Shown here piece after piece: positions 14,362 to 44,312 of a stretch of 64,000 nt of DNA. The position numbers and the translations under genes are program-made. The DNA is from Eledone cirrhosa. Lineage: Eukaryota. The notes beneath the pieces are model-generated. The model saw only the letters and a list, made by a program, of their open reading frames with translations. It ran no database searches and was not told where the DNA came from. The stretch spans positions 232,004,001-232,068,000 of the forward strand of contig OZ024741.1 in NCBI GenBank assembly GCA_964016885.1. Direction: 5' to 3'. The number at the start of each line of letters is the position of its first letter. The stretch's first letter is position 1.

Positions 14362-14622
14362 TAAATATTGCCGAGGGTCAACCTACGAATCAAACCTCTA
14401 CCCATCATGACGACACAGTATACATTTTTAGCCCTTCCGGTGATTGTAAGCCAATGATTACAGAAATGACATCTGACCGTGCTGTAGATGGGAATGTGGA
14501 TCCCGAAATTAGACATCAGTCATGCTCGAATACAAATGAAGGAGGAACAAATTCCTGGCAAGTCAAACTTGACAAAATACGCAACATATCTCTAATGGTG
14601 ATTTACAACATAAACACACCAA
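14362..14622 (+). CDS. Host gene exon A: N-terminal half of an F-type lectin (fucolectin/F5-8 type C-like) domain
   Basis: Polypyrimidine tract with AG at 14360-14361 and donor GTAAGT at 14623. The exon is 261 bp, phase 1-1, and encodes NIAEGQPTNQTST...SDRAVDGN...SCSNTNEGGTNSWQVKLDKIRNISLMVIYN, matching the FTL pattern NxAxGKxxxQSS/AVDGN/C.HT/W.VDL/I.N. Confidence 0.88.
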
Positions 14623-15015
14623 GTAAGTTCTGATATCATTTCTACATTGTTGTTGTTGATGTTTTTTAATTTATAATGAAAAACATCCAGCCTCTTTTCA
14701 GACGCATATACAATATTTTATTTAAGAAGCTACAATATGCCTCGTAGAATTACTGTTTCCTTTTTCCAGCAGGTGGTGGCATAATTTGGATGGTGCCACT
14801 TTAACTCACAATGAAGTGTGTTAAAGTAATCGACGTTCATATTTCTACAAAACATGCATCATTTAGATAATAGCTTAAACCATTATGCAGTATATCTTCA
14901 CGGTCAAACACTCTCACACTCAAAATCAGAGAAGCACAATCACATATACAAACACACGCACATGCATACGGATGCAGAGACGTACACATAGGATTATTCT
15001 CCTATTATTCTAAGA

Positions 15016-15207
15016 GGGCGGTGGATTGGCAGTAACGGTAGAGGGTCGGACGCCATGCTTTGACGCATAGAGTTACGGTCGTTGCCATTCTGAGTTAAAA
15101 TCCCGCCGAGGTTAACTTTGCCTTTTATCCTTACGGGCATGATAAAATAAAGTACCAGTAATGCACTAGATAATTGCTGGCCTTGTGCCAAAAGTAGAAA
15201 CAATTAT
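15016..15207 (+). mobile_element. tRNA-derived SINE, full length
   Basis: A-box-like TGGCAGTAACGG, B-box-like GAGTTAAAATCC (GAGTTCAAATCC in other copies) and an AT-rich tail. At least 8 full or partial copies lie in the window. Confidence 0.85.
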
Positions 15208-15449
15208 TCTATGTAAAAATGAAAGCTAATTAGTTTCTGTCAGATTCTCTAGAACAACTTATAAAATATCCTCCGGTATTCGATTACCGGAGAAGACAAT
15301 TTCGCCATTCATCCTAATGGGGTTGATAAAATAATGTCCGAGGCAATTACTGGTCTCAAGGCAATCAACTTTGCCCTGTTCACAAACTTTTTGTCGTGTC
15401 TTGTCTATGAATTGTCCCCATCGTCCCGGGTCCTATTCGCCAATAAAAA

Positions 15450-18290
15450 ACATTCATCATCATCAGCATTATCATCCTCATTATCATCACTTTCTATCCG
15501 CTTTTCCTTGCTTGCAATGGTGGGACGGGTCCGATTCAGCACATCATCTCTCAACTTGTCACGGTCCACTGCCATCTTCTCCGTGAGTCAGCGATCTCAG
15601 GTCATCTCTCACCACCTCCGCCCATGTTTTTCGTGGTCTTCCTCTACTGCGACTTCCTTCTACTGGGATTTCTTGGCACTTCTATACCCAGTGGTCATCC
15701 TCCATGCGCATCACATGTCCATACCTATGCAGTCTACTCTCCCGCACACTAAAACTTATCCCTCCTATGCACAGTTTCTCTATCAACTCATCTATCCTTG
15801 GTCGTTCATGCACATTGACAATGCACATCCAACGGAGCATTTTTGCTTCATTTCTCTCCAGCAGTCGCATATTCTCCGCAGTTGCTGCCCTTGTCTCTCT
15901 ACCATGCAGCATTGCGCATCTCACACAGGCAATATATAACCGGCCTTTCTTTCGCAGGGAGAAACCCTTCTTTGTCAACAGAGGAATCAACTACCTAAAC
16001 TTCATCCAACCTGTACTTATTATAGATACTATGGCCTCCGAACACCTCCATCACATGCTAATCTGATCACCTAGTTACCGGAAGCTATCAACCACTTCTA
16101 TTGAACACAACTGCATTTGCAAAAATGTGTCTATCACTGCGAACTCTACTGTTAAATTTCCCTGTACATGTACTGCATATGTAGTTTTCCCTACCTTGTA
16201 GTTTGCCTGCTATCCCCCTACGTCTCTTCTGTACCCAAGATCTGCATTGTGTAAATTTTATGGAATTTACGCCAACTCCTTTTCTACATATCTAACATGG
16301 CCATTTCCCTGATGGAATCAGAGTTTTGTCCACTTTTATATATATCAACACTTTAGTCTTAGCTAGGTTCACTCTCAGTCCTTCTGATTCCAACTGCTGC
16401 TTCCATAACCAGAATTTAACCTCTAACCCCTCCACTGATTTTGCTATAAGTACCAGATCATCAGCATAGAGAAGTTCCCATGGGCAGCCAGTCTTAAACT
16501 CCTCTGTTATGGCTTGGAGGACTATAATGAACAAGAGCCGGCTGAGGACCGAACACTGATGTACTCCTACTTGTATCTGGAATTCCTCACTAAACTCCAT
16601 TCCTACCCTCACTTTACTTGCATACTTACAGCACCCTTGTATACACCATGCATTGATCTCAAAAGAAATACCTCTACACCTAGTTCCCTTATGGAGGACC
16701 AGATGACAGATCGGGGTACCTTATCAAAGGCCTTCTCTAGGTCCACAAAAGCTAAGTATAGTGGCTTATTCTTTTCTAAGAACCTCTCTTGTAGTTGTCT
16801 CACTAAAAAGAGGACATCTGTTGTACTTTTCCCATGCATAAAACCAAACTGCATCTCCTCTAGTTTGACCCTTTCTCTAATTAGTTGCGCTATTATTCTT
16901 TCTGCCACTTTCATAATCTGATCCACCAGATTTATGCCCCTATAATTGCTCCTCTACAGAGAATCTTCTTTACCTTTGTAGCAATTTATAAGAATACTGC
17001 TGCACCAATCTTTGGGTATCACTCCGCCATATATAACTCGATTGACGATGCATGCAACCAGTTTAGTTCCTACTTCTCCTGATGTCTTCAGCATCTCAGC
17101 TGGACCGTCGGGGATAGTTATCTCCGACAGTCCAGCGGCCTTACCACTTTTCATTTCCTTAATTGCCTCTTGGACCCTATAGTCGTCAATCTCAATAGCT
17201 GGTCCCTCTGTCGGGTCTGCTGGGGGTAGTTTCTCTCTCTCACATTCGTTCTCCACCTTCATCAGTCTCTCATAATGACATTTCCAAACCTCCTTTTTCT
17301 GATCATTACAGACACTAAGTACACCAGCATCATTTCGGGCACACTTATCTCCAACAACATCCTGATTTACACTGACATACCGTCTTTCAATGTGGAACAC
17401 TGCACGTCTCTGATCTTCCAGTCGCAGATCATTGGCAAACCTTCTACTCTCAGCCTCCATGCATGTTAAGTACACCTGATGTCTAGCTTCTATTTCAGAA
17501 GCAGTGTATTGTTCTCTATACTCCCCACTTTTCCAAGCCTTCCATTCTAGTCTTTTGTCTTTAATGGCCCTATCTACCGTGCTGTTCTTCCACCAGGTCA
17601 CCCTCTGTCTGGCCGGAGCTCTGGTCCAGTCACAAGTTTCTTCAGTGGCCTGCAGTAAGTTGTCACGTAAGAAATTCCAGTTATCATCTATGTCATACGA
17701 TTCTAACTCGTCTTCTTTTTCGTCATACATATCTTAAAGGGCTTTCGCAAATTTATATTTTAGTGAAAGGTCTTTTAGCTTCTAGATCATCCTCTCCCAC
17801 ACCTTCCTGTATGGCTCATTCTTCGTTTCGTGAGCCATAACCATGAGGACCGTGCACCCAAGTGTATCCATACTGGAGCTGTCCAACACGACCATTGAAG
17901 TCCCCTGCTAGTATAACTATGTCTATGTCTTCTGTCAGTGTGGCTGTTTCTAAAAGTTGCTCATAAAAGCAGTATTTCTCTTCTTTACCTAGGCCAGCCA
18001 CGGGAGCATAGGTAGAGATGATTGTCAGCAGTCTCTTGTCTACAACTAATGTAATCCTAATCATTCTATTACTGCCTGTAACTACCTCTATTTTCTTATT
18101 GATCCACCTCTCAATCAGTAAAATGCCTATCCAAACTAACCCATCATCATTACCTACCCAGAAAAGCTTATAACTAAGATGTTTGCCCGCGATTAGTCTT
18201 GCTGAGGCACCTCTCCATCTCACCGCTTGCACGCAGTACAAATCTACATGTCTTCTCTCTCGCATCTCCACTATTAACCCAGATCTACCT
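15450..18290 (-). mobile_element. RTE-clade LINE, near full length, degenerate
   Basis: APE endonuclease (17816-18271: STYAP, AGDFNG), RT (MQFGF, FVDLEKAFDKV, LLYADDL), C-terminal RVRESRLHRYGHV, and a (GAT)n-like tail at 15451-15490. Confidence 0.92.
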
Positions 18291-18291
18291 G

Positions 18292-18485
18292 TCGGATTGG
18301 CAGTATCGGTAGAGGGTCGGACGCCATGCTTTCCAGCATAGTTACGTCCCTTTACGATCTGAGTTCAAATCCCGCCGAGGTTGACTTTGCCTTTCATCCT
18401 TACGGGGTCGATAAAATAAAGTACCAGTAATGCACTGGGTAATTGCTGGCCTTGTGCCTAAAGTAGAGACCATTATTATTATTAT
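18292..18485 (+). mobile_element. tRNA-derived SINE
   Basis: Near identical to 43177-43367 (reverse) and similar to 15016-15207; (ATT)n tail. Confidence 0.88.
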
Positions 18486-18699
18486 AATTGGTTTCTGAAG
18501 TACACATTACGCATGCTCTTGATCCAAATGTTTTATCATGTTCACTTGTTTACTGACTGTTCATCGTTATTTTTTGTTATAATCTGTATACATTGGCCAC
18601 ATAAACGCAACCACATAATAATTGGTCCTTGGACACAAATAATGCAATTAGATTTCTGAATTACGTTCCTAAAATTCTAACAAAACGGAAACGATAACC

Positions 18700-21600
18700 C
18701 CTCGTCATTCGAAACAGAGTACAAACAATATTTCGCATATACAAAACATAATTCACGATTTCAGCAAATGTCGAAAGTACAACCACAACAACGTCACCGT
18801 CAACAAAAACACTGTCACCTCCATCCCTATCGAAACTACCAACGAGGCTGCCCCCGCTGATGAGGACAATAACAAAAGTAACAACAGCAACAATAATAGC
18901 CTCAACAACCAATACAAACAACAGCAACCACAATAACTCCGCTAACAAAAGCAATAGATACAAAAGCAACAGCAGCAACAACAACAACAATAAAAAATAA
19001 AAAACAACAACAAGGTTAATGGAAAAAATAATGACACCAACGTGGAGAACCTTTTCGGAAATCGTGAGTACAATTATAAGAAATTGCTTCCATTAACACC
19101 GGAAAACAATTCAAGAGTATGCCGCAGTTAGCGGAAGAAAGCCAGATAAAAACACTAGGAAAGATGTACGGGAACTACGACTCAACATCCAGGGTGCTCG
19201 AATCTCACCAAAACATAACATTGAACCAGCCTTCACTATCGACGAACTACTGAATGCATTGAACCAAATAAAAGCCAGGAAAGCGGCTGCTCCCGCAGAC
19301 CAGATAGCAACAGATCTCCTCAAACACCTACCACCAATGGCCTTAAAAACATTGTTAGACCTACTAAATTTCAGCTGATTGGAGAATTCGTGCGTGCCCA
19401 CAAGATTGGCGAATGGCAACTATCGTTCCCTTAAAAAAAAAAGCGAAAGATCCGGCGGTAGTGGGGAGTAATCGACCAATTGCGCAAACCTCAACGATAG
19501 GGAAGCTCTTAGAGCGTTTGATTGCGAACAGGTTAACGTGGTGGCTAGAGGAACACTCCATTCTTAGTCCCTAGCAAGCTGATTTCAGAAAGGGCCGCAG
19601 CACCACCGATCAGTGCCTCAGATTGTCCCAGTTCATTTCAGATGGGTTCCAGTCGTTGGATCAAAACCGCATCGCTGCTACATTCTTCGACTTTAGCCGT
19701 GCGTATGATCGTGTGTGGAGAACAAGACTGTTGCAAGATATGATGAGGTTTGGCATTCCCCTGCATTTCGTCGAGTGATTATCCGCCTGCTTTACAAACC
19801 ATATAGCAAGAGTCCGAATTGATGGAACCACTGGTCGCAGTCGCGTTTTTAAAGACGGGCTACCGCAAAGTTCCGTCCTTTCACCAATGCTTTTCACAAT
19901 CTGCATAAATGGTCTACTCGATCAATTCGACAACACAACACATGTCAACCCATACGCCGATGATCTTGTTATCGCATGCTGCGGTAAGAAAAAGGAGGAA
20001 ATAGCGCAACGGTTACAAAAGGAAGTGGATAAAGTGATAGCATGGAGTAAAGAAGTTAAACTCCCACTTAACAACAAAATGCGAGTCAACCATCTTTGGA
20101 ACATCCAGTGCAGAAGCGAGGTGGCAACCAAATATTACTATTGACGGGGTAAGACTATCCTTTAACTCTAATTCCGTCTGTTTGGGCGTCACATATGATA
20201 GAACACTCTCCTTTGGGGAACATGTTAAAAAGATCTGCTAAAAACTTCAACAGCGCGTCAACATCCTGCGCACCCTTGGGGGCACCTCCTGGGGTTGGCA
20301 TACCGCAGATCTTCGTCAAGTATACATCGCAGTGCACCGCAGTCTGGCTGAGTACGGCTTCCAAGGCTGGGCTCCCTGGTTGTCAGCCACTAACATCGGC
20401 AAGCTTGAAAGAACACAACTAGAAGCAGTTCGAGCGATCACTGGACATGTGCGCACAACACCAACTGAGGCTATCCTACCTGAAGCTCACCTTCCACCGT
20501 TGGAATGCCGCTTTCATGCTCTCTCCCTCTTGAAAGCAGATGAATGGGTGCACCACCCCAAATCCGATCATCGAAACCAATTACTCAATGTTAACGTAAG
20601 GCGCCGACTCCGCCGTCTTGATTGGCGATGTAGACAGCTGCCAGCCCTTACTCGTCTTGGCATACCCTCGACAACAGACACCCAACTACCACATAAGGAG
20701 CCGCTGTGAAAATTACCACCACTAATCCCTGCTACCTTTACCCCGGTGAGCAAATCAATGTTAGTAGCACTACAACTTAAAGCGGCACTGGATCATCTAT
20801 CGACACTCCCCCCGGCCGACATTGGCGTGTATACAGATGGATCAACATGCGACGGTACAACCAATGGCAGTGCCGGTCTCGTAATCATCCAAAATGAAGA
20901 GGTAGTTCATGAGTGGCACACTCCGACGGGCGCTCGTAGCAGTTCCTTTCATTCCGAAATAATTGCATTCAAACAAGTACTACTACGGTTACAGGCAGAG
21001 ACCAGCTGGGAGTACTCCAATGTCATCTGTGACTGCAAGTCATTACCGAGCTGCAAGGGATCGATCGCTAACAAAATCATAAAGGTGAGAACATTAGCAG
21101 CTGTCTGGGTCCCGGGGCACTGCAACATCAAAAGGAATGAACTGGCAGATGCCCATACGAAACAAAACTTAGCATCTACTCAACTGGAAAGTTCAATCGA
21201 TGCCGCCACCCGACGCGCCGTCATACACCGGGAATTTCGCCCACCTCCGATCCAGCATGAACGTCTACAATCAGTCTTTAGCCGCCACGCAAATGAAGAC
21301 ACTGAGAAAACTCTCTCCAAAGCAGATAGGAACCATCTCTTCCGCTTCCGCAGTGGACATCACACGTCATTAAGGAGATGGCTCCATATGATCTGCCAAG
21401 CGGAAATAAACACATGCCGTCTGTGTGGAGAGGAAGAAGAATCCTCCGAACATCTTTGGATGAGATGTCCGGTCTTGATGGTGGATTGTTATCACCACCA
21501 ACTCGACTCCAGCATGGATGAATTCGTGCGTCTCCCTCAAGCCAGTCTAGCGCTACTGAGGCGCCTGCTCTAAGAAAAAGGAAACACCAACAACAACAAC

Positions 21601-22010
21601 AGACTCGACTGGAACACAACCACCACAATCACCAACATCAACAATAACTACGACATGACCATCTGTATATCCAACAGAACTAGCAGCTGCAATATCAAAA
21701 TCAAAAGTAGCTGAGAGAAAAACAGCCCCAACATCATTATGAACACCAATGGAAGACATACCTTTCCCCCATATCACACATTAGAATATTGGTCGGGACA
21801 AAGTAAGGGTGTGACATCGCATCGGTCACTAGAACAAAAAGAAAAAAGAAAATGCGACATGTTTTCGCCACAAATAACGGAGGCGAATATGAAGGCAAAA
21901 AATAAAATACAGCGATGGAACAACTAATGCCAACATCCACACAATCCTCCCAATCATCACCACCAGCTAGGGGAGGCGAAAAGATCCATCCACGACCACC
22001 TGCACCTTAA
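18700..22010 (+). mobile_element. Tx1-like ORF1/5' fragment split by the RNase H LINE (18700-19140 and 21600-22010)
   Basis: The (AAC)-rich Thr/Asn low-complexity region and a PMED-type segment resemble the ORF1 regions of the minus-strand Tx1 copies. Confidence 0.5.
19140..21600 (+). mobile_element. 5'-truncated non-LTR retrotransposon with RT, RNase H and C-terminal zinc finger (I-group-like)
   Basis: RT motifs FFDFSRAYDRV, GLPQSSVLSP and NPYADDL; RNase H VYTDGS...SEIIA...WVPGH...NELAD (20746-21200); CRLCGEEEESSEHLWMRC; (CAA)n tail at about 21586-21600. Confidence 0.9.
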
Positions 22011-22167
22011 GTGATATATAATAGAGATAATAACAGAGAAACCTGGCACGATGGTCGTTTGTTTGCCTTTGATTTTTGCTGATGATTGGTATATGACGTT
22101 AGTCACTACCTTCAATTCATAGCGAAAGGCCTTCAAAATGTTTCTAAAAACAACCTACACTATATAA

Positions 22168-23925
22168 CACTGGTCAACAAGTATTTTACATCAAGCATAT
22201 GTCAGGGTGTACTTAGTGTAATTTTTAATGCTCATTTCAAATATACAATTAGATTTACATCACGTACAGTTTTCAAGATGACAAAGTATTTTGGTTTTAG
22301 CTCAAGCATTATATAGAAATTCAAATTAATGACGTGTATGCATGTATATTATTTACATCATGGAAACATATCTTTAAAATAAACTACATGATTCATTGCT
22401 GCATATTTCAGATGCAATATTTCATCTTCTTAAATTAACCAATTAAGTTTTGTCTGATGAAATAGATATTTCAACATCTCAAATTATCCAGTCATAATTG
22501 GTCTGATGAAATATTTCATCATCTCAAATTCCATATACGTATAACCGTTTGTATCTATTTCCTTACTTGTTTTACAGTGTTAAGAATGTCAAGATAGTGT
22601 AGAAATCGTCCTGATGTGTTTTTTTAATCTCTGTGGACAATTTATTGTGAAGGCTCCAAAACGTACAATAACACCAGAGATGAAGATTTATAAGCTATAC
22701 GTTGACTGTCCTCTTGGAGATCAAGACAAGTTATGGGCACCACATTTTATCTGCCCAGCTTGCTCAAATGGCTTACGTGACTGGTTCAATAAGAAGTCCG
22801 TGCCTTTTGCCATTCCAATGATATGGAGGGAGCCGAAAGCCCATTTTAATGACTGTTATTTTTGCAAAGTAAATGTCACAGGATGTTCTATGAAGAATAA
22901 ACACAAAATTATGTTACCCAATTCGGATTCTGCAATGAGACCTGAGCCTCACAATGGACGTCGGCTTATTCCAGTTCCACCAAATGATGGTATTCAAACA
23001 TCAGGTGATGATGCTGACTGTGACGATGGTGCTCCTGAGGAAAATTACGTGGCTGATGACGATAGCTTTGAACCTCAGAAATTTTCCCAAGCTGAACTGA
23101 ATGACTTTGTCAGAGACATATTCCTCTCAAAAGATAAAGCAGAACTGTTGGCATCAAGACTGAAGGAGAAGTATCTGCTAGAACACGGTGTTCGTATAAC
23201 TTATTTTCGGCAGAGAAATGTGGTTCTACAAACGTGTTTTTTTCTGTTGAAGGCCCGCATTGCTTTTGCAGTATCATCGATGGACACTTTTCGAATATTT
23301 ATCACAAAAGCATGATCCTGCAGAGTGGCGTTTGTTTATTGACTCTTCAAAACGAAGTTTAAAAGCTGTACTTTTCCATAATGGTAATTTGAAGCCTACC
23401 ATTCTTATTGCACACTCCGTTTATCTTCATGAGTCATATGAGAATATAGAACTTTTATGTGATGCCTATGAAAGATACTCATAGAGAATATGTGCAGATT
23501 TAAAATTCACTGGAATGTTAACGGGAATGCAGTCAGGTTCCACAAAATACTGTTGTTTCTTGTCTCTATGGTATATTCGGGCAACTGACAGACATGTTTC
23601 GGAATCAAACTGGCAAACAAGAACATCATACCATCCAGGACTGTCTGGCGTCATGAATACACCTCTTGTAGATCCATGTAGTGTTTTATTGCCTCCTTTG
23701 CACATAAAGCGTAGACTGATGAAACAGTTTTTATAAAGACACTAGGGAAGAAAAAGACCAGAGGGTTGGAGTATATTGTAGAAAAGTTTCCCAAAATCTC
23801 ACAGGCGAAATTGAAAGAGGGTATCTGTGTCGGACCTCAAATTAGAGAAGTACTCAAAGATGTTAACTTCAAGATAACACTGGATGAACTAGAACTGTCT
23901 GCCTGGAATGCTTTCAATTGGATGT
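22168..23925 (+). mobile_element. Chapaev-like (Chapaev3-type) DNA transposon, 3'-truncated pseudogene
   Basis: Begins TAA|CACTGGTCAAC. The transposase fragments read GDQDKLWAPHFIC, PMIWREP..H..DCYFC, EWRLFIDSSKRSLKAV, TKYCCF and LPPLHIK. The superfamily assignment is from motif recall, not a search. Confidence 0.65.
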
Positions 23926-24147
23926 TTATCTTATTACATTAGAATAGGTTATATGTATATAAATATCTAAATATATGTTGAGAAGTTGCGTATGTATTGA
24001 TTGTTTATATATCAAATATGAGTTACGAAGGATGTTGAAATTTTATTTTCAACTTGTGAGATTAGTATAATTTGTGGATTCAAAAATTGTGTTCAACATT
24101 GAGAATGTTTTCAGAATATTGTTAATTTAACGAAGCTATATAAATTA

Positions 24148-25943
24148 CACCGTGTAACAAAAAATCTTTTTTTCTCTGATCCTGGCTCGTAATCTCTTTT
24201 TTTGTGTGTTGCTTTGGTCCCAAATAAATAAAAAAGTGCTATTAAACAGTTAAAAGTTTGGGTTTGTAAATATTCTAAGCTATTCACTAGAATTATTTGT
24301 ATGCTGGATTTTACGTTGTATGTAGGTTTCATTTTCTTAGGTTAAATGATTCTTTTTATATATGTTTCAAGTTAAATTAAAATTATAAAATAAAGAGTAA
24401 TACCTAAAGAAAATTATTAAAGTGCAATAAAGTATAAAATTGTTAAAAAGTGGATTAAAGAGATTTATTGATACTGGGGTTCCAGAAAACGTTCCTCACT
24501 TCCGAAACCAAAAAGAAGTCAATGACTTGGTCAGGGATATGGGTCTGACCAGGTCCAATGCAGAGCTATTCGTCTCCAGGATGAAGCAGTGGAACTTGGT
24601 CAAGGAGGAAGTGCAGGTGACAAATTAAAGAAGTCGACACCAACATTTCTCAGGTTTTTGCACTCTTAAGGGTGGTCTCTGCTTCTGCCATGACGTGCCT
24701 GGACTGTTTGACGTTATTGGGGTGCCGTTTATGCCCAAGGAGTGGCGGCTATTTATAGACAGCTCCACCGCAAGTTTGAAGGCTTTCCTCCTCCACAATG
24801 GAAACACGTTCCCGACACTGCCCCTAGCTCATTCAGTCTGCCTGAAGGAAGATTACTACAGTGTGAAAGTCCTCTTGGAAGCTCTGCAATACAACGAGTA
24901 CAATTGGGAAATCATTGGAGACTTCAAGATGGTGGCTTTCCTGCTTGGACTCCAAGGAGGCTTTATCAAATTCCAATGCTTCCTCTGCCTTTGGGACAGT
25001 AGAGCCACCTCTGACCACTACAAAAGAAATAACTAGGAGCAGCGAACATAATTTGTAGTTGGGACCCGGAACGTCATGTGTGAGCCACTGGTTGATCCCA
25101 GGATTGTGTTCATGCCGCCACTGCACATTACGTTGGGGTTGATGAAGCAGTTTGTGAAGGCTCTCAACCAAGAATCAGCCGCTTTTAAGTACGTTCTTGT
25201 GTTCTTCCCAAAGTTATCTGAGGCCAAAATCAAAGGTGGAATTTTTGTTGGACCTCAGATAAAGAAGGTGTTTGAGTCTACCGAGTTCTCCAATAAGCTC
25301 AATAGGATTGAGAGAACAGTATGGAACTGTTTCAAGGCAGTTGTTAATGGCTTCCTGGGCAACTACAGAGCTGAAACTACCAGCAACTGGCGCAAGATCA
25401 GATAAAGGCTTCTGGCACCATGGGATGCAGGATGTCGCTTAAACGCTGTATCGCTAGACGCTCACCTGGAAATATTCAAGGACAATATGGGCGCCTACTC
25501 AGAAGAACAAGGCGAACGATTCCACCAAGATGTGAAAGAGATAGAGCGGAGGTACCAGGGCCACTACAATAAAAAGAATGATGGGGGACTATATCTGGGG
25601 GCTAGTGCAGGAATGCGACATGGACTACAACGGCAAATCCAGGAAATCCAGTCATTTCTCACGTGTATAAGTTGCTTTATAAGTGTTATTTGTTTTTACT
25701 TGTTTGCTTTTGATAAGCTTGTGTAATAAAATAAATATATACTCTGTTGATTTAATTATATAAACTGATAAATTTAAAACAAATGTGTTTTTTCTTGAAA
25801 AATATGAACATTTCGAAATATCAAACTCCTGACCACAAACACAAACTTCTAATGAAATAATAGTGTTTTTTTTATAATAATGGGATATGACAAACCAGTA
25901 AATGATGTGTAAAACCGGGGAACAAAATATCTTTTACACGGTG
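24148..25943 (+). mobile_element. Second Chapaev-like DNA transposon with both termini, internally deleted
   Basis: Terminal inverted CACCGTGTAA (24148) and TTACACGGTG (ends 25943), flanked by TTA and TAA. Transposase C-terminal fragments: EWRLFIDSS, CFLCLWDSR, MPPLHITLGLMKQFVKAL, SEEQGERFHQD. Confidence 0.7.
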
Positions 25944-25944
25944 T

Positions 25945-27616: not shown

Positions 27617-27689
<73 letters not shown>

Positions 27690-27817: not shown

Positions 27818-28015
27818 AGTGGAGGTTTGAAGGCTTTTATGTTTCTGTTAACTCAGGTCCTAATGGTGAGCTAGTAAAAACGTTTGAAAGTTCAGGGGAT
27901 ATACACTTACAAGGACGCATCGTCCTTAGATTTGATAAACCAGCCCTAGGTGATACTGTCACCATCTCTAATCTCCTCGGTCGCAAACTTACTTTGTGTG
28001 AAGTTAAGGTTTTAG
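27818..28015 (+). CDS. Host gene exon B: C-terminal half of the F-type lectin domain
   Basis: TTAACAG acceptor and GTGAGT donor; 198 bp, phase 1-1, no stops. It encodes WRFEGFYVSV...GDTVTISNLLGRKLTLCEVKVL with the FTL-terminal LCEV motif. The ORF track misses it. Confidence 0.9.
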
Positions 28016-29174: not shown

Positions 29175-29318
29175 AATGTAAACCCGGATATTACGGATAT
29201 ATGTGTCAAGAGAAATGTACAGATTGTGTAAATACGGCATGTGAAAGTTATTATGGTGAATGTGATATTGCTTGCAAAAATGGCGTAATTTGGAGTGACG
29301 AAATTAAAAGATGTCCAA
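29175..29318 (+). CDS. Host gene exon C: 8-Cys EGF-like module 1
   Basis: CACAG/GTAAGT boundaries, 144 bp, phase 1-1; [48 protein letters not shown]. Confidence 0.92.
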
Positions 29319-32566: not shown

Positions 32567-32710
32567 GATGCAAAGCTGGATTTTATGGAACTCTGTGTGA
32601 AAACAATTGTGTAAATTGTATACGCTTGTCATGTGAATCTGATCATGGTAAATGTCTCAAAGGTTGTCACATAGGTATGGATTGGGATGACAAAACTAAA
32701 AAATGTGAAG
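32567..32710 (+). CDS. Host gene exon D: 8-Cys EGF-like module 2
   Basis: CACAG/GTAAGT, 144 bp, phase 1-1; CKAGFYGTLCENNCVNCIRLSCESDHGKCLKGCHIGMDWDDKTKKCE. Confidence 0.92.
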
Positions 32711-33690: not shown

Positions 33691-33845
33691 ACAACATCAA
33701 TTAAGAAGCCGCATGAGGTAGTCCAACAATAGGAACAATAAAACTGAATGTCATCAGGAGAATTGATAATCAATTCTCCTGATGACATTCAGTTTTATTG
33801 TTCCTATTGTTGGACTACCCCATGCGGCTTCTTAATTGATGTTGT
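33691..33845. repeat. Near-perfect fold-back palindrome (77-bp arms, 1-nt centre)
   Basis: 33691-33767 is the reverse complement of 33769-33845 with one mismatch. Confidence 0.95.
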
Positions 33846-34279: not shown

Positions 34280-34423
34280 ACTGCCCTAACGGATATTACG
34301 GATTTTTGTGTGATTATAATTGTTCAGAATGTCTAAACATGTCATGTGGAAATATTAATGGTGAATGTCACTTTGGTTGTATGTCTGGAATGGAATGGGA
34401 TGAAGAGGCTAGTAAATGTAAAG
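34280..34423 (+). CDS. Host gene exon E: 8-Cys EGF-like module 3
   Basis: CATAG/GTAAGT, 144 bp, phase 1-1; DCPNGYYGFLCDYNCSECLNMSCGNINGECHFGCMSGMEWDEEASKCK. Confidence 0.92.
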
Positions 34424-35967
34424 GTAAGTGAAATTGGTGAAGATATTACTTTTTACCTAGTCGTTCTATAAATGCTGTGTGTCGGAAATATTGTTAGAGT
34501 GTAGAACAAAATGTGTTCCGTTTTCTGTATCCATCTAGGACAGGAATTGTTTGAGGATGTTGTGACATGCGTGGGGGGGCAATATTTGTCTCGGCATTAC
34601 GCATTCTGAGCTTACATACCAATAAATCCTATTACAGTAAAGTGATAATTAGACTTTCACCCCGTTTATCTCAACCCGGCCCATGGTTGCTTTTAGCAGA
34701 GTTTATTCTCTTGCAATTATTTGAACATGGCTCTGGTTTGAAGATACATTCATTGGTATAACAAATTAACTTAATAATAGTTAATCAAAATCCTTCTCTA
34801 AGTTAACAAAAGTCCATGATATTATTTTAGTTCGTTTGCTGCCGATTTACTCTGAAATAATAAATTACAACTTAATCTTGTCCGGTAAACCTCGACATGG
34901 ATCATGGGCTCTATACTTCATGCTTCAATTAAACGAAAAGAAGAAAATATGTGGCAAACCATAGCATATAAAGAGTGACCTTCAGAAACCATCACACTGA
35001 TAATATAATTCTCATATCATTTTGAAAGCAATAGACTTTATTTGCATCATACAATTTAGCATACATAATACATAGAGACGCTAATACTAGTAAAATAGAC
35101 ACTAATTAAATGCATCGTCATCCGAAATTTGGTCAGCTTTTATATCTGTTACATTATGTCTTTGATCTGTTAGACGGAAAATACGATCAGCCAGATAGAA
35201 CCTTCGTTCCGCAATTTTACTTAGGACGATTGTGATTTGCTCTCCACGGCATTTGTTTTATTTGTAAACGAGGTTCACCATTTGATCTTTTGTAATCGTT
35301 CTGAGCCATCTTTGATGGAGCACATTCAGCTTTCTGGAAATCTTTGCTCTGTTTTCAGGTCGCTTTAGCATACACGGCTGTATGGAGAATGACTGTCTCG
35401 TATAGACAAAGTTTGACATCTGCACTCATAGTTAAGCCTGAGCAAACAAAGCGCATACACTGGAACACCTTCACAACCTTTCCAATTCTGCTCATAACGT
35501 CCAGTTCATTGTTGCTTTTGTTGGATCACTTCACTGCAGCTTCCTTAAATGGTGTTGTCTCAATCCATCATCAACTAACCCACAATTTTGCTGCTACAAA
35601 TTTCAACTAGTTCCTTCTATTAATGCGATGTTGTCAAATTGTGTGTTTTCTCCATGAAATTCATTTGATGGTTACACCATAACCGTGCGTCTTGGTGCAT
35701 ATATGAGGTTTTAATTGTAATTAAGCAACATTTTCGCGCTGGTTTAGGCATACGCAATCCATTTGAAAGACACTAATTTGTACATCGGTCTATGGCCCGG
35801 AGAACGCTGAAGCGGCTTGTGGCAGACTCCTTCTCCCGGAAAACCCTCAGTAACCATGAACTTTGACATAAGTTGATTTTTATTGTCCCCGAAAGCTATC
35901 CCTTCTAACCTTGCAAAGATTCCATCGTAGGCTATCTCTCTCTCACCCCATCGCTCTCTCTCTCTCT

Positions 35968-36034
<67 letters not shown>

Positions 36035-36041
<7 letters not shown>

Positions 36042-36797
36042 CGTAAAATAAGAAAACATTTTTTAAAAAAATGTTTTAACATTTTTTACTTACTTACTTA
36101 AATTTTCACTCCAACTAATTAGTTTCTGCAATGGGATAAAGACAGTTACGTAATCCAACTGTCGAGAATTCATTGCGTCATCAGGGAGTCTATTCTCAGC
36201 TAAGTCTCCAGGCAATGCGCGGACACTGGCGGCTCATATAAAAATAATAATAATTCGGTAGATAGAACAGCTGGCGAGGACTGGATTCCATGTACTGAAA
36301 TTCTCACTGCTTCTAGTCAAATGGCCGATTCTAAAGAATCAATCACGTGACACAGAGGCTAGTTAGAAGGAATGGGATGGTAAGATGACTGACGCCTACT
36401 AACACCCCAAAAAATTTAGAAGTGGTTTTGGCAGGTTTGCTCGACAAATCAGTGATTTGGAGATAAATATAGATAATTTAATATATCAACTAACAGCAGC
36501 GCACAGATGCACGTCCATGCCAGCAAATACACAGGTTATGTCATAGTACCTAGGTGGTTCAATGCAGGAGGATGCAGAACAATAATATAAAAGACGTAAA
36601 ATAAGAAAACATTTTAAAAAAAATTTTTTTTTAAATTTTTTACTTACTTACTTAAATTTTCACTCTTATTTTACGTCTTCTATATTATTGTTCTGCATCC
36701 TCCTGCATTGAACCACCTAGGTACTATGACATAACCTGTGTATTTGCTGGCATGCACGTGCATCTGTGCGCTTCTGTTAGTTGATATATTAAATTAT

Positions 36798-36800
<3 letters not shown>
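36035..36800 (-). mobile_element. Non-autonomous Penelope-like/retrozyme-like unit with direct and inverted repeats, inserted in (TA)n
   Basis: Direct repeat 36035-36111 vs 36587-36665, inverted arms about 36472-36606 vs 36664-36799, and an internal hammerhead. Confidence 0.65.
36108..36189 (-). ncRNA. Type I hammerhead ribozyme
   Basis: Minus strand: ACUCC CUGAUGA cGCAAUG...GACAGUU..AACUGUC...CAUUGCa GAA ACUAAUUAGU U GGAGU. Stem I is 5 bp, stem III is a 10-nt palindrome and the cleavage triplet is GUU. Confidence 0.8.
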
Positions 36801-36843
<43 letters not shown>

Positions 36844-37059
36844 CACAAGTATCAAAGTTATGTTCACATCATTTAATCGCTGACAATTGTTTCTTCCAAT
36901 CTTTCGTTTGGAGTATCGGAGCATTATCAATGTTACTATTCTTTTACTGGTAATAATGTAACTATTCCCTTACTGTTAATAAGGTAGTAATTAATTACTG
37001 ACCTTTCCTCTTTATAGTTATTTATAGTATAGTATATACATAACTATAAATACTATCTT

Positions 37060-37098
<39 letters not shown>

Positions 37099-37103
<5 letters not shown>

Positions 37104-37879
37104 TAAAATATATGATAAACACAAAACGTGTTTGCATTGCAACAGACAAACTTAGCTATTAATGAAATAAACTAATTAAAGTGAATACAATTTGTCTGTC
37201 TCGATATAAGTCAATAAAGACAAGTTTATATTGGCAATGGCCATGGTTCCTGGACATATTAACATTTCAAAATCCAAACCTGTTCCGTAGACGAATTTGA
37301 ACCTCGAAACCCAAATACGTTTCGCAAAGGTGGTACGTGAATTGAAAAATAAAGAGAATCGAAATGGAAATGAAATATAATATAATATAGTATAATATAA
37401 TATAGTATATTGCTCCTTAACTGTAGAGCTGATCTTTAATCCCGCATAAACGGCTGTTATTTCTAGCACCGGGAATGCGGGACGTCTAATTTGGCCTGGT
37501 TGCACACGTGTAGTCAGACCTGCTAAATTTGTGATGTGAAATGTAATAATTTTACTGGGTTCCTGTTGATAAGCACAGAAGATTTGGATATTTCACTTTT
37601 TATATCATTTCCATTTCGATTCTCTTTATTTTTCAATTCACGTACCACCTTTGCGAAACGTATTTGGGTTTCGAGGTTCAAATTCGTCTACGGAACAGGT
37701 TTGGATTTTGAAATGTTAATATGTCCAGGAACCATGCCCATTGCCAATATAAGCTTGTCTTTATTGACTTATATCGAGACAGACAAATTGTATTCACTTT
37801 AATTAGTTTATTTCATTAATAGCTAACTTTGTCTGTTGCAATGCAAACACGTTTTGTGTTTATCATATATTTTAATGTA
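37099..37879. repeat. 275-bp near-identical inverted repeat (MITE/fold-back-like)
   Basis: 37099-37373 vs 37605-37879 with about 3 mismatches seen. The mirrored ORFs 37176-37505(-) and 37536-37802(+) are nearly the same peptide. Confidence 0.92.
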
Positions 37880-37959
37880 TTTAACTGCTCGGAAATGCCC
37901 CTTTTCTCAGAGCTGGATTATTGTAAACGACTGAGAGATTATTCTCAAAATATAGTATA

Positions 37960-38021
<62 letters not shown>

Positions 38022-38052
38022 GTTTATGATAAATGTGTATTCTCTTTCACAG

Positions 38053-38196
38053 AGTGCCAACCCGGATATTACGGATTGAAGTGTGCAAATAATTGTTCAG
38101 ATTGTGAAGGCATGGCCTGTGATAGTTATATTGGTAAATGTGAAAATGGTTGTATCGATGGTATGGCTTGGGATGACGGAATTAAAAGATGTACAG
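38053..38196 (+). CDS. Host gene exon F: 8-Cys EGF-like module 4
   Basis: CACAG/GTAAGT, 144 bp, phase 1-1; ECQPGYYGLKCANNCSDCEGMACDSYIGKCENGCIDGMAWDDGIKRCT. Confidence 0.92.
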
Positions 38197-39479
38197 GTAA
38201 GTGAAATTTTCGTGGTGAAGATATTACTTTTTACCTGGTCCTCCTATAAATGGTGTGTCGAAGGTGTTGGTAGAGTGTAGAACAAAATGTCTTGGGGTAC
38301 TTGTTCCGTTTCCTGTATCCATCTAGGGCTGGAATTGTTTAAGAATGTTGACGACATACGTATTTGTCTTGGCATTACGCATTCTGAGCTTACATTCCAA
38401 TATATCCTATTAGGGTGAATGAGACTAAAACTTTCACTCAGTTTATCTCAGCCTGGTCCTTGGTTGCTTTTAGCGGAGTTTATTCTCTTACAAGAATTTG
38501 AACATGCCTCTAGTTTCACGATACATTCATTTGTATAACAACTCAACTTAGTGATAGTTAAACTTAATCATTCTCCCAATTAACAAAAGTCCCTGATTTT
38601 TTGCTTTCTATTGCATCTGATCTTCTTCGTAAGGGTAACTCCCAACTTAATCTTGTAAGTCCGGGAAACCCTGACATGGATAACGGGCCCCTATCTTTCA
38701 ATATTTGATTAAGCGAAAAGAAGAAAAATGTGTTTCAAACCATAGCTTATAAAGAGAGCTCCCCAGAAATCATCATTCTGGCAATAACATGTTCATCTCC
38801 TAATGGCATCATACAATTTATCATATATAGTACATAGAGGCGCTAAACCTAGACAATAATTAAAGCTAGACGAAAAATAGACGCTAATTATATGTATCAC
38901 CAGCTGAAATTCGGTCTGCTTCTACTTTAGTTGCATCTTGGAGAAGTTCATGTCATCACTATTGTCGAATGTTATTGATCTGGTGGACAGAAAATACGGT
39001 CAGTCGCGGAAAACCTTCTGTCCGCCCTTTTTACATGCAGCGGTTGTGATTTGCTGTCCACGGATTTTTTTTATTTGTAAACCAGGTTGGTCAGGTGATA
39101 TTTTGAAATCTTTTTGAGGCAGCTTTGTCGGAACACATTCAGCTTTCTGGCAATCTTTGCTTTGTTTTCAGGTCGCATTGGCATACAGAGCTATGCGGAG
39201 AACGATTGAGTCGTGTAGAAAAAGTTTGACAACTTCACTCATAGTTAAGCCTGAGCAAACAAACCGCATTCACTGGAAATCCTTCACAACCTTTCCAATC
39301 CTGTTGATGACGTCCAGTTTCAGTGTTGTAATTGTTGGATTACTTTTCTCCGGCTTCGTAATTGGTGTTATTGCCCACCATAATCAAGTAATCCAACAGA
39401 TGCTACATATTTGAACTATTTCCTACTATTAAGGCAACGTTGCAGACATGTGTGTTCTTTCCACTGAATTCATTGCAAC

Positions 39480-40330
39480 CAGTAGTACAAGAGGGGAGAG
39501 AGGAAGCACTCTTCGATTTCTTCACAAACAATGTTAACTTAATTGATGCTATTAAACCACTAGTGGTTTCTGGTATTCGATACACTGTTTAATGATGCTA
39601 GTCAGAATGAACATTTGATCAAGGAATATGCTGCTCTTTCGAAAGCAATAAGAAATACCCGCGGTACAGAATCTACAGCATGGTGTAGTATTCTAAGTAG
39701 CACTATGCAGAACAATATGTATGGGAACAAAACATGTGATTCCTGGTCAGTCTTTGCAAGCTACCAGATTACCCTTCTTTAGTAACTTCCAAATAATCAC
39801 TTGCTGACTCTCCGGGGGTAGTGGCCCTTAATTCCAGCAGTTGTTCATCAGCTTGGTCATTGCTGAAATTATTCTGCTGTCATCAAACTTCAAAAGCTTC
39901 TTTGAGTTCTCATTCAACCCAACAGATTTGTTATTCTTCAAAGAATTTCGTGCAATTATCATCTCCCCTACTATAATGTTTTCCCTGGCAGATATACAGA
40001 GATGTGTCGGCTGCTGGTCTATTAAAGCTGAATTCATACAAAGTAACTGGGGCTGGCTAGTTTATCTCCTGGAAGTGTTAGATCTAACTATATCTTGCTC
40101 TTTACTTGTCACCAGCCTTTACATTCTTTTCATTTATTCTCATGCTCACATTTCATCGGACGCCTGTTAACTCTCTTACAATGTTACACAGGGTTGTTGA
40201 TACATTTCTACACGCCACTTCCTCAACCTCCGTGCGCGTGTTCTCTCGCGAGGGCAATTTATTTTGACTCTTTATGCAGCATCTGTTTTTCCTTCGTTTG
40301 TTTTCTTGCTATGCCCCTTAAGAATTTTTG
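39480..40330 (-). mobile_element. Old LINE (RTE-like) remnant
   Basis: Minus strand LKNNKSVGLNE...LLKF, matching the K(S/A)xG segment before RT; heavily decayed. Confidence 0.5.
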
Positions 40331-41699
40331 TATTCAATCTTCCGAATATGAAAATCAGATTTGATGGAATTTGTACAATACAACAAATATAATATTATTT
40401 CTTCGAACGTGGGACTAGACGGTACAATGTTCTGCGGAGCCCAATAGGGAGAAGATTTAGTGAGGCTTATATTTGAAATATATAGATCCACATAGAAAAG
40501 TTTACCCATAAAACGCAGGAAACATAAAAACACTTTAAACAAATAACAAGACGATTAGTCAGGTCATGTATCCTCCTTTCTTCCCCTCCTTTCCTTAATG
40601 CTGTTATGCATCATAATTGCATAGTGCGTGGGGTCGGCATGGAAACAGAGACGTCTGCCCAACGACCTTAGTTAATTACGTCTGGACGTGGTGCACCATT
40701 GTGTAGTCGCTTACATTCATTCTCGATTATTACAAATATAGGCAACGTTCTGGACGTGAGAATAGCGACAGAAGTGCTTTTAAACTGATGACAATCTATG
40801 CCCTAGCACCAGTAGGGTGGTCACTCATTCAGAGTCTTAGTGACAACCCTAAACCATATCACTCATTAGTAATAGAGGGCGATATATTTTGTATGAACCG
40901 ATTCTGTAAGAATAAAAGTTAGACGATTTGAAGGCAAAATCATCGTTAACCTGTTCAGTTTTATCCAATTGTCTGACAGGATTGATTTCGAAATTTTCAG
41001 AAGGGGCGTTATGAACTTGTCAAATAGCAGTAACTCTTGCATGTAGGACTTACTTAGAATGTTCTTTAGGTTTCATTTAGAAATAGTGTAGTAAATTACT
41101 CAAAACATGTTATCATTGGCTGCACATTATAGATTCAAGTGAGGAACATCTCTCAGTCTGATATCTTATCTATATATAATATCCACACATTAAGGTGTTT
41201 AAGTATTAGAGACTAATTTGTGCCGTCAAATTAAACCTGATCATATGCCAGCGAGCCTCTTTCTGGAGCTGCACGCCTCATCCACAGCGCAGAAATATTT
41301 AAAAGACGAATGACCGAACTAGTTAGGAAGGAATCGAAGGCGGTGGTCAATAAGGATCAACAATAAGGGGTGGGTTTCACTGAAAAGATAAAAATAAAAT
41401 TTACATCAGTTATCTTTAGCACAATTAACCAAAAGTAGAGGTACCCTAACCTTTCACAATCTATGTACATATCTCTTTCTTGAACTGGCCATTTGCAACT
41501 CCTGTTTCCATCAGAAGAACGCTCATAAGGTTTCAGCAAAGATAGAAACATGGGCATATTATTGATTATTCCATCTTCTGTCGTAAACGGGATTTCAGGT
41601 TGTCTGCAATATTTGGGTCATGTGAGGAACAGACAATGATCCAGTGTGTGGCAAATGGACTCGAGAACATTGGAACACGTGATGAATCAGGCTTTTGGC

Positions 41700-42570
41700 T
41701 CTAAAGACCACGTACAGGATACCACTCAGGTCTAAGGGTGAGTCTGTCCTTTTTAAAGATTCGAAAATATACTGAACACTGGAGCGAGCAATTTACGCAT
41801 CCTCTCTATAATCCCTCGGAGTTTTGCGGAGGTATCTTTAATAACTTGCCTTAATTGTATATAATTCAAGAAATGTCAGATCATCCTAATCTGGCAGATG
41901 TCCAACAGACTGTAGGGAAGATTGATAGGTGGAAGGCACCGGGTCTTGATGGTCTTGCTTCATAGATGTGACGAAATTGCTGAGGATATTTACCATTTGA
42001 TTGCTGATAATCGGAGACGTACGCCTGTTTCTCAACTATGGATGCATGCGATACTTGTTTCCTTGTTCAAGGGGAATAACTGTTCTTAGAACAGGGGGTA
42101 ATGTATTGCAAAACATCTCTTTAATAAGGTTACCAAATGTATTTGCCCTTGAGTGATTAAGTAGACACAATGTAGCTTTAGATCGGGCAGGAGCACAATG
42201 GACGTAATCGTTCCGGCTCAGCAGCTGCAGGTAAAATGTTTAGAACGTGGCTTTAGCCCAGGATTTTATTGACCTACACAGGATTTTGACTCCGTTAATA
42301 CGGATGATCTGTGGACCATTCATGGTTAGGTGGAATGCACTTCGGGTTTCGTGAGATTGTTAAAACAACTACATCGAGGGAAGAAAAGGAGGGTTTACTC
42401 TGCAGGTTGTCTGTCTAAACCCATAACCATTAAAAATGGAATTCAAACAAATAGACATCCCAGCACCGACTCTGTTCTCCTTGTTCTTCGTCGTGATACT
42501 CAAAGAAGCTTTTCAGAATTGCGATATATGTGTGTACCTACATTTCAGAACCACGGAAAGAGTGGAGAAT
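41700..42570 (+). mobile_element. Old RTE-like LINE remnant
   Basis: GKAPGLDG, FRSGRSTMDV, FIDL...FDSVN and YLHFRTT motifs in broken frames. Confidence 0.6.
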
Positions 42571-42676
42571 TAACAGAATATTATATTTTGACAATTTAAT
42601 ATGCCGTGAGTTAAAATATACATATGTATATATATGATTCTTTACAGACGAGGGCCATCTCTTCAACAATGTTGTT

Positions 42677-42678
<2 letters not shown>

Positions 42679-42751
<73 letters not shown>

Positions 42752-42755
42752 GGAG

Positions 42756-42798
<43 letters not shown>
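42679..42798 (+). repeat. (GA)n microsatellite
   Basis: Direct inspection. The many (TA)n/(CA)n/(GA)n tracts elsewhere (e.g. 27620-27686, 28917-29143, 50917-51035, 62113-62286) are not listed individually. Confidence 0.95.
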
Positions 42799-43003
42799 AC
42801 GGGTTAAAAACCGCTCGGTAAAACGTGCGTACTCGAGTACGGTTTGCTAATTTGCTGTGGAACTAACTCTATATCGAGATCGTCCTCTGGACTGGGTGCT
42901 CTACTTCCTACATATTTAACTCCCATTTTTTTACCACTGTATATATATATATATATACATATATGTGTGCGTGTGTGTATATATTTATATTCTCTTTGAT
43001 CAG

Positions 43004-43094
43004 ATGCAAATTCCAGTATTAAGATGATGATACTTATAATTGTAATGATCCTGTGCCTCTTTTTCATTGGAGCGGCGTTAGCATTTTACGCCTG
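43004..43094 (+). CDS. Host gene exon G: transmembrane helix
   Basis: Acceptor tctctttgatcag and donor GTATGT; 91 bp, phase 1-2. It encodes DANSSIKMMILIIVMILCLFFIGAALAFYA(W), about 23 hydrophobic residues, in frame with exon F. Confidence 0.85.
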
Positions 43095-43176
43095 GTATGT
43101 GATTTTCTTTTTCTTTTATCCTTATTATTTTTCTAATACTTTACTTTGAATGAGTATGAGGTGTAGTTATATAATC

Positions 43177-43367
43177 AATAATTGTTTCTACTTTAGGCAC
43201 AAGGCCAGCAATTACCCAGTGCATTACTGGTACTTTATTTTATTGACCCCGTAAGGATGAAAGGCAAAGTCAACCTCGGCGGGATTTGAACTCAGATCGT
43301 AAAGGGACGTAACTATGCTGGAAAGCATGGCGTCCGACCCTCTACCGATACTGCCAATCCACCGAGG
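43177..43367 (-). mobile_element. tRNA-derived SINE
   Basis: Reverse complement of the 18292-18485 family. Confidence 0.88.
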
Positions 43368-44182
43368 GTAATGGAACTCAATAGATTTCAGCGATGAGTT
43401 TTCAAATTATTTGGTGACTAAAATGACCTCATATTTAAAGAACTCTTTAACTCAGTTTCATTCATAAACCTTAATTGTAGCCAATGGTTATGTTAACAAA
43501 CACTAATACATAATACCATGCAGTGGGAGCGATATCGGGACAGCATGACAGGGAATTAATATTTGCTGCAATTCGTTCATGCTGCGCTCATTGAGACATA
43601 AACCTAACTTGAATTCCTAAGTCATAAAATTAGAACGATTTATATATATAGGAACACATATTTTCCCCTTTACGTTGCTTGGTGAAAATTAATTACCAGT
43701 TATATTGATATTAAATAAAATAAGTGCCATGTCATTGCAATAAATATTCGACTAATCATTGCTTCATCTTATTTGACCAGGGAATTTTGTTAGGTTTCTT
43801 TACTTGACACCGACTCAGTATTTGTCTTGATATTGAAACGATGACAAAAATATTTGCCTCAAAGACATTTGAACACAGAGACACCAGTCAAAAAGCTATA
43901 AACTTTAAATTATCTAATTATATAGGAATATAAACAATTGTTACTATAGTTAGAAATGTCAGTGGTGTGAATGTGTGCGAGTTTAACAGCACTGTATGTA
44001 TATATATATATATGCTCTGTAGGCGTATTGCTTATAATAATATATTTCTTACATAGGTAACCTCATATAAACTAGCATGACATATTTATTATGAAATTTA
44101 AACGTAAGAGATAAAGTAAGCGAGATAAGTTTCTATTACGTGACACACTGGTTGTTAGTAAAATATTTACATGATGTTTCAG

Positions 44183-44312
44183 GAAAAAAATACGAGATAA
44201 TAAACAAAAAAGAAAAGAAGAAGAAGGAGATGAAGGAGAAGAAGAAGATGAAGAAGAAGAAGATGAAGAAGAAGACGAAGAAGAAGAAGACGAAGAAGAA
44301 GTCTCAAATTAA
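44183..44312 (+). CDS. Host gene terminal exon H: basic stop-transfer plus poly-acidic cytoplasmic tail
   Basis: TTTCAG acceptor, and phase 2 completes TG+G = Trp. It reads KKIRDNKQKRKEEEGDEGEEEDEEEEDEEEDEEEEDEEEVSN-stop (TAA 44310-44312). Basic residues follow the TM as the positive-inside rule predicts. Confidence 0.78.

What the first reader, a model, noticed from the sequence alone, without database searches (positions are those of the whole stretch)
14362..44312. Hidden 8-exon membrane receptor: F-type lectin + 4 EGF-like modules + TM + poly-acidic tail
Seen: eight exons with GT-AG boundaries splice without a stop (phases 1,1,1,1,1,1,2) into about 417 aa spread over 30 kb of transposon debris, and the ORF track shows only two of them in frame. 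Known: molluscan FTL+MEGF10-like EGF ectodomains commonly lead to receptor tyrosine phosphatase or longer signalling tails. Inference: this protein instead ends in a 42-aa tail with no enzyme or Tyr motif, so it may be a lineage-specific adhesion, scavenger or decoy receptor.
Basis: partly seen in the sequence, partly recalled or inferred. Interest (0 to 1): 0.75.

Follow-up and report, generated by a model that had tools for sequence, protein, structure and literature searches.

The report
Octopus lectin-EGF receptor lacking its phosphatase
The eight exons are real and form the back half of a 14-exon gene, likely from an octopus, for a fast-changing cell-surface receptor that ends in a short repeat-derived tail where its neighbours carry a phosphatase, so it is likely a non-signalling recognition or decoy receptor of a kind already described in snails, and this copy may be broken.

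Summary
Observation confirmed: eight AG/GT exons, phases 1,1,1,1,1,1,2, 417 aa without a stop. They are the 3' part of a 155-kb gene (A) with six more exons upstream of the window, including a signal peptide. The next paralog's first exon lies in the window, 10 kb after the stop, and the nearest downstream phosphatase exon found is over 500 kb away, so the short tail is very likely the true end. A sits in a tandem cluster that holds all four combinations of lectin head or none with short tail or phosphatase tail; trees indicate head/tail swapping. A versus B shows dN/dS 1.58. The acidic run is a GAA microsatellite in a last exon shared by 19 loci; only 2 of 13 tails are acidic. Two of three fucose-binding residues are missing. 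An upstream exon carries a 5-nt deletion, so A is about as likely a young pseudogene as a rescued gene. No RNA data. The architecture matches Biomphalaria 'scavenger class F-like' subgroup 1B, and this scan already read paralog B the same way.

The parts
14362..14622 (+). F-type-lectin-fold domain, first exon (gene exon 7 of 14); calcium motif kept, fucose His and first Arg replaced
   Evidence: (PF22633 E 2.8e-5, below cut-off)
27818..28015 (+). F-type-lectin-fold domain, second exon
29175..29318 (+). 8-Cys EGF-like module 1 (144 nt, phase 1-1)
32567..32710 (+). 8-Cys EGF-like module 2
34280..34423 (+). 8-Cys EGF-like module 3
38053..38196 (+). 8-Cys EGF-like module 4
43004..43094 (+). Transmembrane exon (phase 1-2), no charged residue in the helix
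44183..44312 (+). Coding part of the last exon: basic stop-transfer residues, acidic run, stop
44210..44301 (+). GAA microsatellite (31 copies, 82% matches) that encodes the acidic run
44313..44600 (+). 3' UTR shared with 18 other loci; AATAAA at 44452
54276..54339 (+). Signal-peptide exon of the next paralog (B); bounds gene A downstream

Best explanation
The exons are the 3' half of a 14-exon gene for a single-pass receptor with a lectin-fold head, an EGF stalk and a short enzyme-free tail, one of a tandem cluster whose heads and tails were likely swapped by recombination, and it likely acts as a fast-diversifying recognition or decoy receptor that binds without signalling by itself. Shown: gene anatomy, end of the gene, phosphatase-bearing neighbours with the same head, excess amino-acid change against paralog B, repeat origin of the acidic run, loss of the canonical fucose site. 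Inferred: all coding introns from the signal peptide to the membrane exon are phase 1, so unequal crossover can join any head to either a short tail or a stalk-plus-phosphatase tail; short-tailed copies would bind foreign or allelic ligands and hold, clear or divert them from phosphatase-bearing copies; the tail mainly anchors the helix. Whether copy A is still translated in full is about even.
For: Splicing and frame. Upstream exons and a 677-aa frame (through an alternative acceptor). End of gene: B's signal exon at window 54276; no phosphatase exon outside E and F in 1.66 Mb of fetched cluster DNA. Cluster: head+short tail A, B, D, G; head+phosphatase F and decayed E; no head+short tail C; no head+phosphatase J. 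F's head groups with short-tailed D (AU test rejects A+B+D+G as a clade, p=0.001; informative sites 31:1:0 at exon x3), its signal exon with B (11 vs 3 vs 1), its stalk and phosphatase exons match J at 74-92% DNA. A-B dN 0.241, dS 0.153, ratio 1.58 (bootstrap 1.21-2.19), aligned introns 0.09-0.11. No in-frame stop in 677 codons; simulated neutral chance 0.012 at branch length 0.05. Tails 3-299 aa, acidic in 2 of 13. Snail counterparts sit in resistance-associated clusters (PMC13712769 section 20; PMC12297450 passages).
Against: No RNA, ligand or expression data. A has a 5-nt deletion in upstream exon x3 that gives a stop at aa 172 from the canonical acceptor, confirmed by a short-read contig. 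The other 5 of 6 pairwise dN/dS intervals include 1 (0.89-1.29). A+B+D as a clade is not rejected (p=0.064) and the tree carried a long-branch warning. F's general-acid loop reads WPG, and J lacks the catalytic Arg, so the phosphatase-tailed partners may themselves signal weakly. J was only partly fetched. The immune role is borrowed from snail association studies in which no gene is proven causal.
Confidence: 0.6

Rival explanations
1. Copy A is a young pseudogene: the x3 deletion sends most transcripts to decay, and the eight window exons are intact only because the loss is recent. (Compatible with the family-level reading.)
For: 5-nt deletion absent from B, D, F; stop at aa 172; the rescuing AAG acceptor lies between two CAGs and is the weaker type (splicing rule recalled); neighbours E and the 231.84-Mb fragment are decayed.
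Against: An A-specific base change creates an AG exactly 7 nt downstream, which restores the frame; skipping the exon also keeps the frame; the loop is shorter in O. bimaculoides P0045; no stop elsewhere.
Confidence: 0.45
2. The acidic tail is itself functional (sorting signal, binding surface for a basic partner), making A and B a distinct signalling class.
For: A and B both keep an open acidic run, 27 of 42 and 41 of 66 D/E, with stops at matching positions.
Against: The run is a GAA repeat, which keeps frame by nature; C, D, G have 3-12 aa tails; of 8 distant tails 7 are basic and 1 is balanced; no Tyr, no Ser/Thr within the run.
Confidence: 0.12
3. The family serves self/non-self, gamete or neural cell recognition rather than defence against parasites.
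For: Diversifying ectodomains and tandem clusters fit any recognition role; F-type lectins also act in fertilization (PMC5712786 passage).
Against: The closest described clusters are tied to parasite resistance (PMC13712769, PMC12297450); no data here on tissue.
Confidence: 0.25
4. The window's last two exons are an alternative 3' end of a longer phosphatase gene.
For: Symmetric phase-1 exons allow skipping; phosphatase exons exist downstream on the same strand.
Against: The nearest lie over 500 kb away, behind the signal exons of B, C and E and the last exons of B and C; no EGF exon between A's stop and B's upstream EGF exon.
Confidence: 0.03

Closest known systems
[quoted passage not shown]
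   Same: Signal peptide, EGF-type repeats, galactose-binding/fucolectin signature, one membrane helix, small cytosolic part without a domain; clustered with forms lacking the lectin (1A) and forms with two phosphatase domains (1C).
   Different: Octopus-type genome; longer head with a second beta-sandwich and long-loop EGF modules; repeat-derived charged tail; orthology to the snail genes not tested.
Biomphalaria sudanica SudRes1 MEGF/GBD receptor-like PTPs (PMC12297450, passages)
   Same: MEGF plus galactose-binding ectodomain, paralog cluster, EGF number varies.
   Different: Those carry tandem PTP domains; A has none.
Octopus database proteins: O. bimaculoides XP_014769031.1 / A0A0L8HVM8 ('MEGF10'), O. 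vulgaris CAI9733300.1 ('RPTP T-like'), O. sinensis XP_029644740.2 ('draper')
   Same: Same order of head domains; models both with and without a phosphatase.
   Different: About 33-47% identical per exon for P0045 and in separate clades; no direct ortholog of A was found.
F-type lectins (eel agglutinin 1k12, striped bass FBP32 3cqo, lectinolysin lectin module) (PMC5712786, passages)
   Same: Fold (Z about 12 for the homolog's model) and calcium motif.
   Different: Fucose triad not kept; membrane-bound.
Vertebrate paired receptor families (KIR, LILR, Siglec; recalled)
   Same: Similar ectodomains on different tails, exchange between paralogs, fast change.
   Different: No charged membrane residue for an adaptor and no Tyr motif; the signalling partner is a phosphatase domain; shared ligand untested.

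Membership tests
F-type lectin | F-type jelly-roll fold | tested here: met
   Window exon hits F-type modules in PDB (best E 3.3e-6); model of homolog P0045 aligns at Z 12.2, rmsd 2.6, 113 residues. A itself was not folded.
F-type lectin | Calcium motif h2DGx | tested here: met
   AVDGN in exon 14362-14622.
F-type lectin | Fucose motif His...R-x-D-x4-(R/K) | tested here: not met
   His aligns to Asn and the first Arg to Ile; the His is absent in all 8 members of A's clade in the tree.
Biomphalaria scavenger class F-like subgroup 1B | Signal peptide, EGF-type repeats, galactose/fucolectin domain, one TM helix | tested here: met
   signal peptide judged by hydrophobicity and conservation, no predictor run.
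Biomphalaria scavenger class F-like subgroup 1B | Small cytosolic region without a domain | tested here: met
   42 aa, no Pfam hit.
Biomphalaria scavenger class F-like subgroup 1B | Common descent with the snail genes; InterPro signatures IPR052108 / IPR042635 | not tested
   No snail sequence was put in a tree; InterPro is not available.
Receptor-type protein tyrosine phosphatase | Cytoplasmic PTP domain(s) | tested here: not met
   No PTP exon between A's stop and paralog E; present in E, F, J.
MEGF10 / Draper / CED-1 | Tyr-based tail motifs (NPxY, ITAM; recalled) | tested here: not met
   No Tyr in the tail.
Paired receptor system | Related ectodomains on different tails, exchanged by recombination | tested here: met
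   one tree test significant, one not.
Paired receptor system | Shared ligand with opposite outputs | not testable with these tools
   Needs binding and signalling assays.

The most novel reading that the evidence does not exclude
The cluster is an invertebrate paired-receptor system built by exon shuffling: phase-1 recombination mounts the same diversifying lectin-fold heads either on a phosphatase tail or on a short anchor, so short-tailed copies such as A act as decoys or dimer partners that tune phosphatase receptors, and A has survived a frameshift by gaining a new splice acceptor.
Probability: 0.25. Interest if true: 0.7.

Novelty: new member of a known kind. Interest (0 to 1): 0.4.

Why it matters
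It shows that the receptor clusters tied to schistosome resistance in snails have a counterpart in an octopus-type genome, with the same four head/tail classes side by side and readable recombination between them. That gives candidates for cephalopod immune or self recognition and a testable model (short tail versus phosphatase tail on the same head).

Tried and rejected
Word-based protein searches with the lectin exon and an alignment of exon x1 found nothing; with P0153 only 3 proteins: weak evidence, no ortholog. Pfam did not recognise the four EGF-like exons singly (0 of 4 EGF hits; one weak defensin hit); they were identified by cysteine pattern and a local profile. Domain X (exons x2-x3): model is all-beta at pLDDT about 70-80, Atlas features point to F5/8-type domains at 0.88, a lead only, and it aligns to the first half of tandem jelly-roll proteins at high rmsd: inconclusive, not folded alone. 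Idea that D has two alternative ends: rejected, two signal exons follow D's last exon and start gene J. Idea that the conserved post-stop sequence is a phosphatase relic: no match. One search used the wrong stretch and hit an unrelated repeat. Paper searches for an octopus description of this family listed none; supplements of the snail papers were not read and may hold tail sequences or trees.
Full report
Observation. The eight exons are at 14362-14622, 27818-28015, 29175-29318, 32567-32710, 34280-34423, 38053-38196, 43004-43094 and 44183-44312. All acceptors are AG, all seven donors GT, the phases are 1,1,1,1,1,1,2, and the join reads 417 aa to a stop. The first two exons encode an F-type-lectin-fold domain (PF22633 E 2.8e-5, below its cut-off on the half domain; PDB hits), four 144-nt exons encode 8-Cys EGF-like modules, then a membrane helix and a 42-aa tail without Tyr. 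No spliced reads could be obtained.

Setting. The window is G000:C2:232,004,001-232,068,000 of a 3.0-Gb genome. The single-domain, full-length hits I looked up are Octopus proteins (9 of 10; one abalone), so an octopod is likely; the species was not determined. The first exon has 40 matches in the genome, a group of them between 230.4 and 233.1 Mb on the same contig.

The whole gene. Comparison with the next paralog (B) gave six more exons upstream of the window: a signal-peptide exon at C2:231,893,734, x0 (231,902,217), an EGF-like x1 (231,917,591), x2 and x3 (231,968,174; 231,970,230; a beta-rich domain of uncertain type) and an EGF exon (231,996,626). The same order is seen in annotated Octopus proteins. 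All introns up to the membrane exon are phase 1. The gene (A) spans about 155 kb and could encode 677 aa.

A defect. Exon x3 of A lacks 5 nt present in B, D and F. From the shared CAG acceptor the frame ends at aa 172; an AG unique to A 7 nt further on restores it, and skipping the exon also keeps it. A short-read contig spans the site with no difference, so it is not an assembly slip, although that sample may be the assembly's own. The rest has no stop in 677 codons; simulated neutral change gives this with probability 0.087, 0.012 and 0.003 at branch lengths 0.03, 0.05 and 0.07. A was therefore under constraint until recently or still is; I put the odds of a full-length product at about even.

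Where the gene ends. B's signal-peptide exon lies in the window at 54276-54339, 10 kb after A's stop. Probes from phosphatase exons found nothing between A's stop and paralog E, over 500 kb away. B, C, D and G end in the same last exon, and its post-stop sequence has 19 matches in the genome, 14 of them outside this cluster; ten membrane-type exons were found upstream of those distant matches.

The acidic tail. It is a GAA repeat of 31 units. I could translate 13 of the 19 last exons (5 in the cluster, 8 of 14 distant): lengths run from 3 to 299 aa, and only A (27 D/E, 7 K/R) and B (41, 13) are acidic; one is balanced, the rest are basic. What is kept is a few basic residues after the helix and a purine-rich, low-complexity stretch. 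The acidic run is best read as a repeat expansion in the A/B lineage.

The cluster. On the + strand: G, D, A, B have head and short tail; F has the same head, one EGF exon of A's type, other EGF exons, a different membrane exon and two phosphatase domains with the catalytic Cys and Arg; E is a decayed F-like gene; C has a signal exon, EGF exons and a short tail but none of the head exons; J has a signal exon, F-like EGF exons and phosphatase exons, with no head exon between its signal exon and first EGF exon, and lacks the catalytic Arg (J only partly fetched). F's head is closest to short-tailed D from x3 to the lectin (informative sites 31:1:0, 25:1:1, 21:3:2, 23:2:2), its signal exon to B (11 of 15), while x0-x2 are unresolved. 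A tree of the EGF-plus-lectin part rejects A+B+D+G as a clade (p=0.001) but not A+B+D (p=0.064), with a long-branch warning. F's stalk and phosphatase exons match J at 74-92% for the best-matching copies. The simplest reading is that F joins a D-type head to a J-type tail; an ancestor with both ends followed by reciprocal losses is not excluded.

Selection. A versus B over 614 codons: dN 0.241, dS 0.153, ratio 1.58 (bootstrap 1.21-2.19), with aligned introns at 0.09-0.11, a figure biased low by alignment. The five other pairs, on 397-408 codons, give 0.89-1.29 with intervals that include 1. This supports diversifying selection at least on the A/B pair.

The lectin. The calcium motif is kept, but the fucose-binding His aligns to Asn and the first Arg to Ile (motif from PMC5712786, passages). 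A model of the O. bimaculoides homolog confirms the fold (Z 12.2, rmsd 2.6, 113 residues). Canonical fucose binding is unlikely; the ligand may be another glycan or a protein.

Mechanism. Inferred: short-tailed copies display a variable head on an EGF stalk, bind ligand and have no motif to pass a signal (no Tyr, no charged membrane residue). They would capture or divert ligands, or pair with phosphatase-tailed relatives. Rivals are a young pseudogene for this copy, a functional acidic tail, a non-immune recognition role, and read-through to a phosphatase, weighed in their own sections.

What is known. PMC13712769 (abstract, sections 20 and 32 read) describes in Biomphalaria glabrata a resistance-associated cluster with subgroups 1A (no lectin), 1B (lectin, small tail) and 1C (lectin, two phosphatase domains); PMC12297450 (passages) describes the phosphatase forms in B. 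sudanica. A matches 1B in every architectural feature I could test; common descent was not tested. Four searches (listings only) showed no description in octopus. Earlier notes of this scan read paralog B the same way (e1-9561064, e1-9544111); one note gives D a phosphatase-like tail (e1-10353788), which my data assign to the separate gene J.

Verdict. A real gene fragment, a new member of a known molluscan receptor kind; the stressed acidic tail is probably incidental, the head/tail shuffling in the cluster is the more interesting result. Interest 0.4.

Noticed in passing
window 54276-54339 (+): Signal-peptide exon of the next paralog; its region has 28 matches in the genome, many on C2 310-314 Mb, C10 and C1149, where the shared last exon also occurs.
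   Followed up: yes
G000:C2:231,970,230-231,970,428: 5-nt deletion with a copy-specific AG 7 nt downstream of the acceptor that would restore the frame: possible splice-site rescue of a frameshift.
   Followed up: partly
G000:C2:231.05-231.80 Mb (L206-L219): Gene J: about 740 kb, two signal exons, an array of near-identical EGF exons at 258-nt spacing near 231.113-231.116 Mb, phosphatase with a degenerate active-site loop.
   Followed up: partly
G000:C2:310-312.7 Mb, C10:26.5-26.8 Mb, C1149 (L190-L203): Short-tail relatives whose last exon holds long purine-rich repeats encoding basic tails up to 299 aa; purine richness might act as a splicing enhancer (untested).
   Followed up: partly
G000:C20 3.5-5.3 Mb, C27 13.1-15.4 Mb, C16, C23: More than 25 near-identical copies of a distant lectin exon (33-36% to A), a recent segmental amplification.
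   Followed up: no
G000:C2:257.5-257.6 and 261.7-261.9 Mb (-): Two near-identical lectin genes with phosphatase exons downstream, 4.2 Mb apart.
   Followed up: no
window 43177-43364: Very high-copy short repeat in intron 7 (summed contig depth above 10 million), probably a SINE; absent from B's aligned intron was not checked.
   Followed up: no
window 22584-25723 (+): Broken Cys-rich transposon-like reading frames with no Pfam match.
   Followed up: partly
window 107-4027 (-), 16295-18364 (-), 19779-21570 (+), 45091-45378 (-): Retroelement remains (reverse transcriptase, RNase H, endonuclease) and a Pif1 helicase fragment, likely Helitron.
   Followed up: partly
G000:C2:232.584-232.590 Mb: Tandem repeats in the juxtamembrane region of decayed paralog E, a charged low-complexity insert before the phosphatase.
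   Followed up: no
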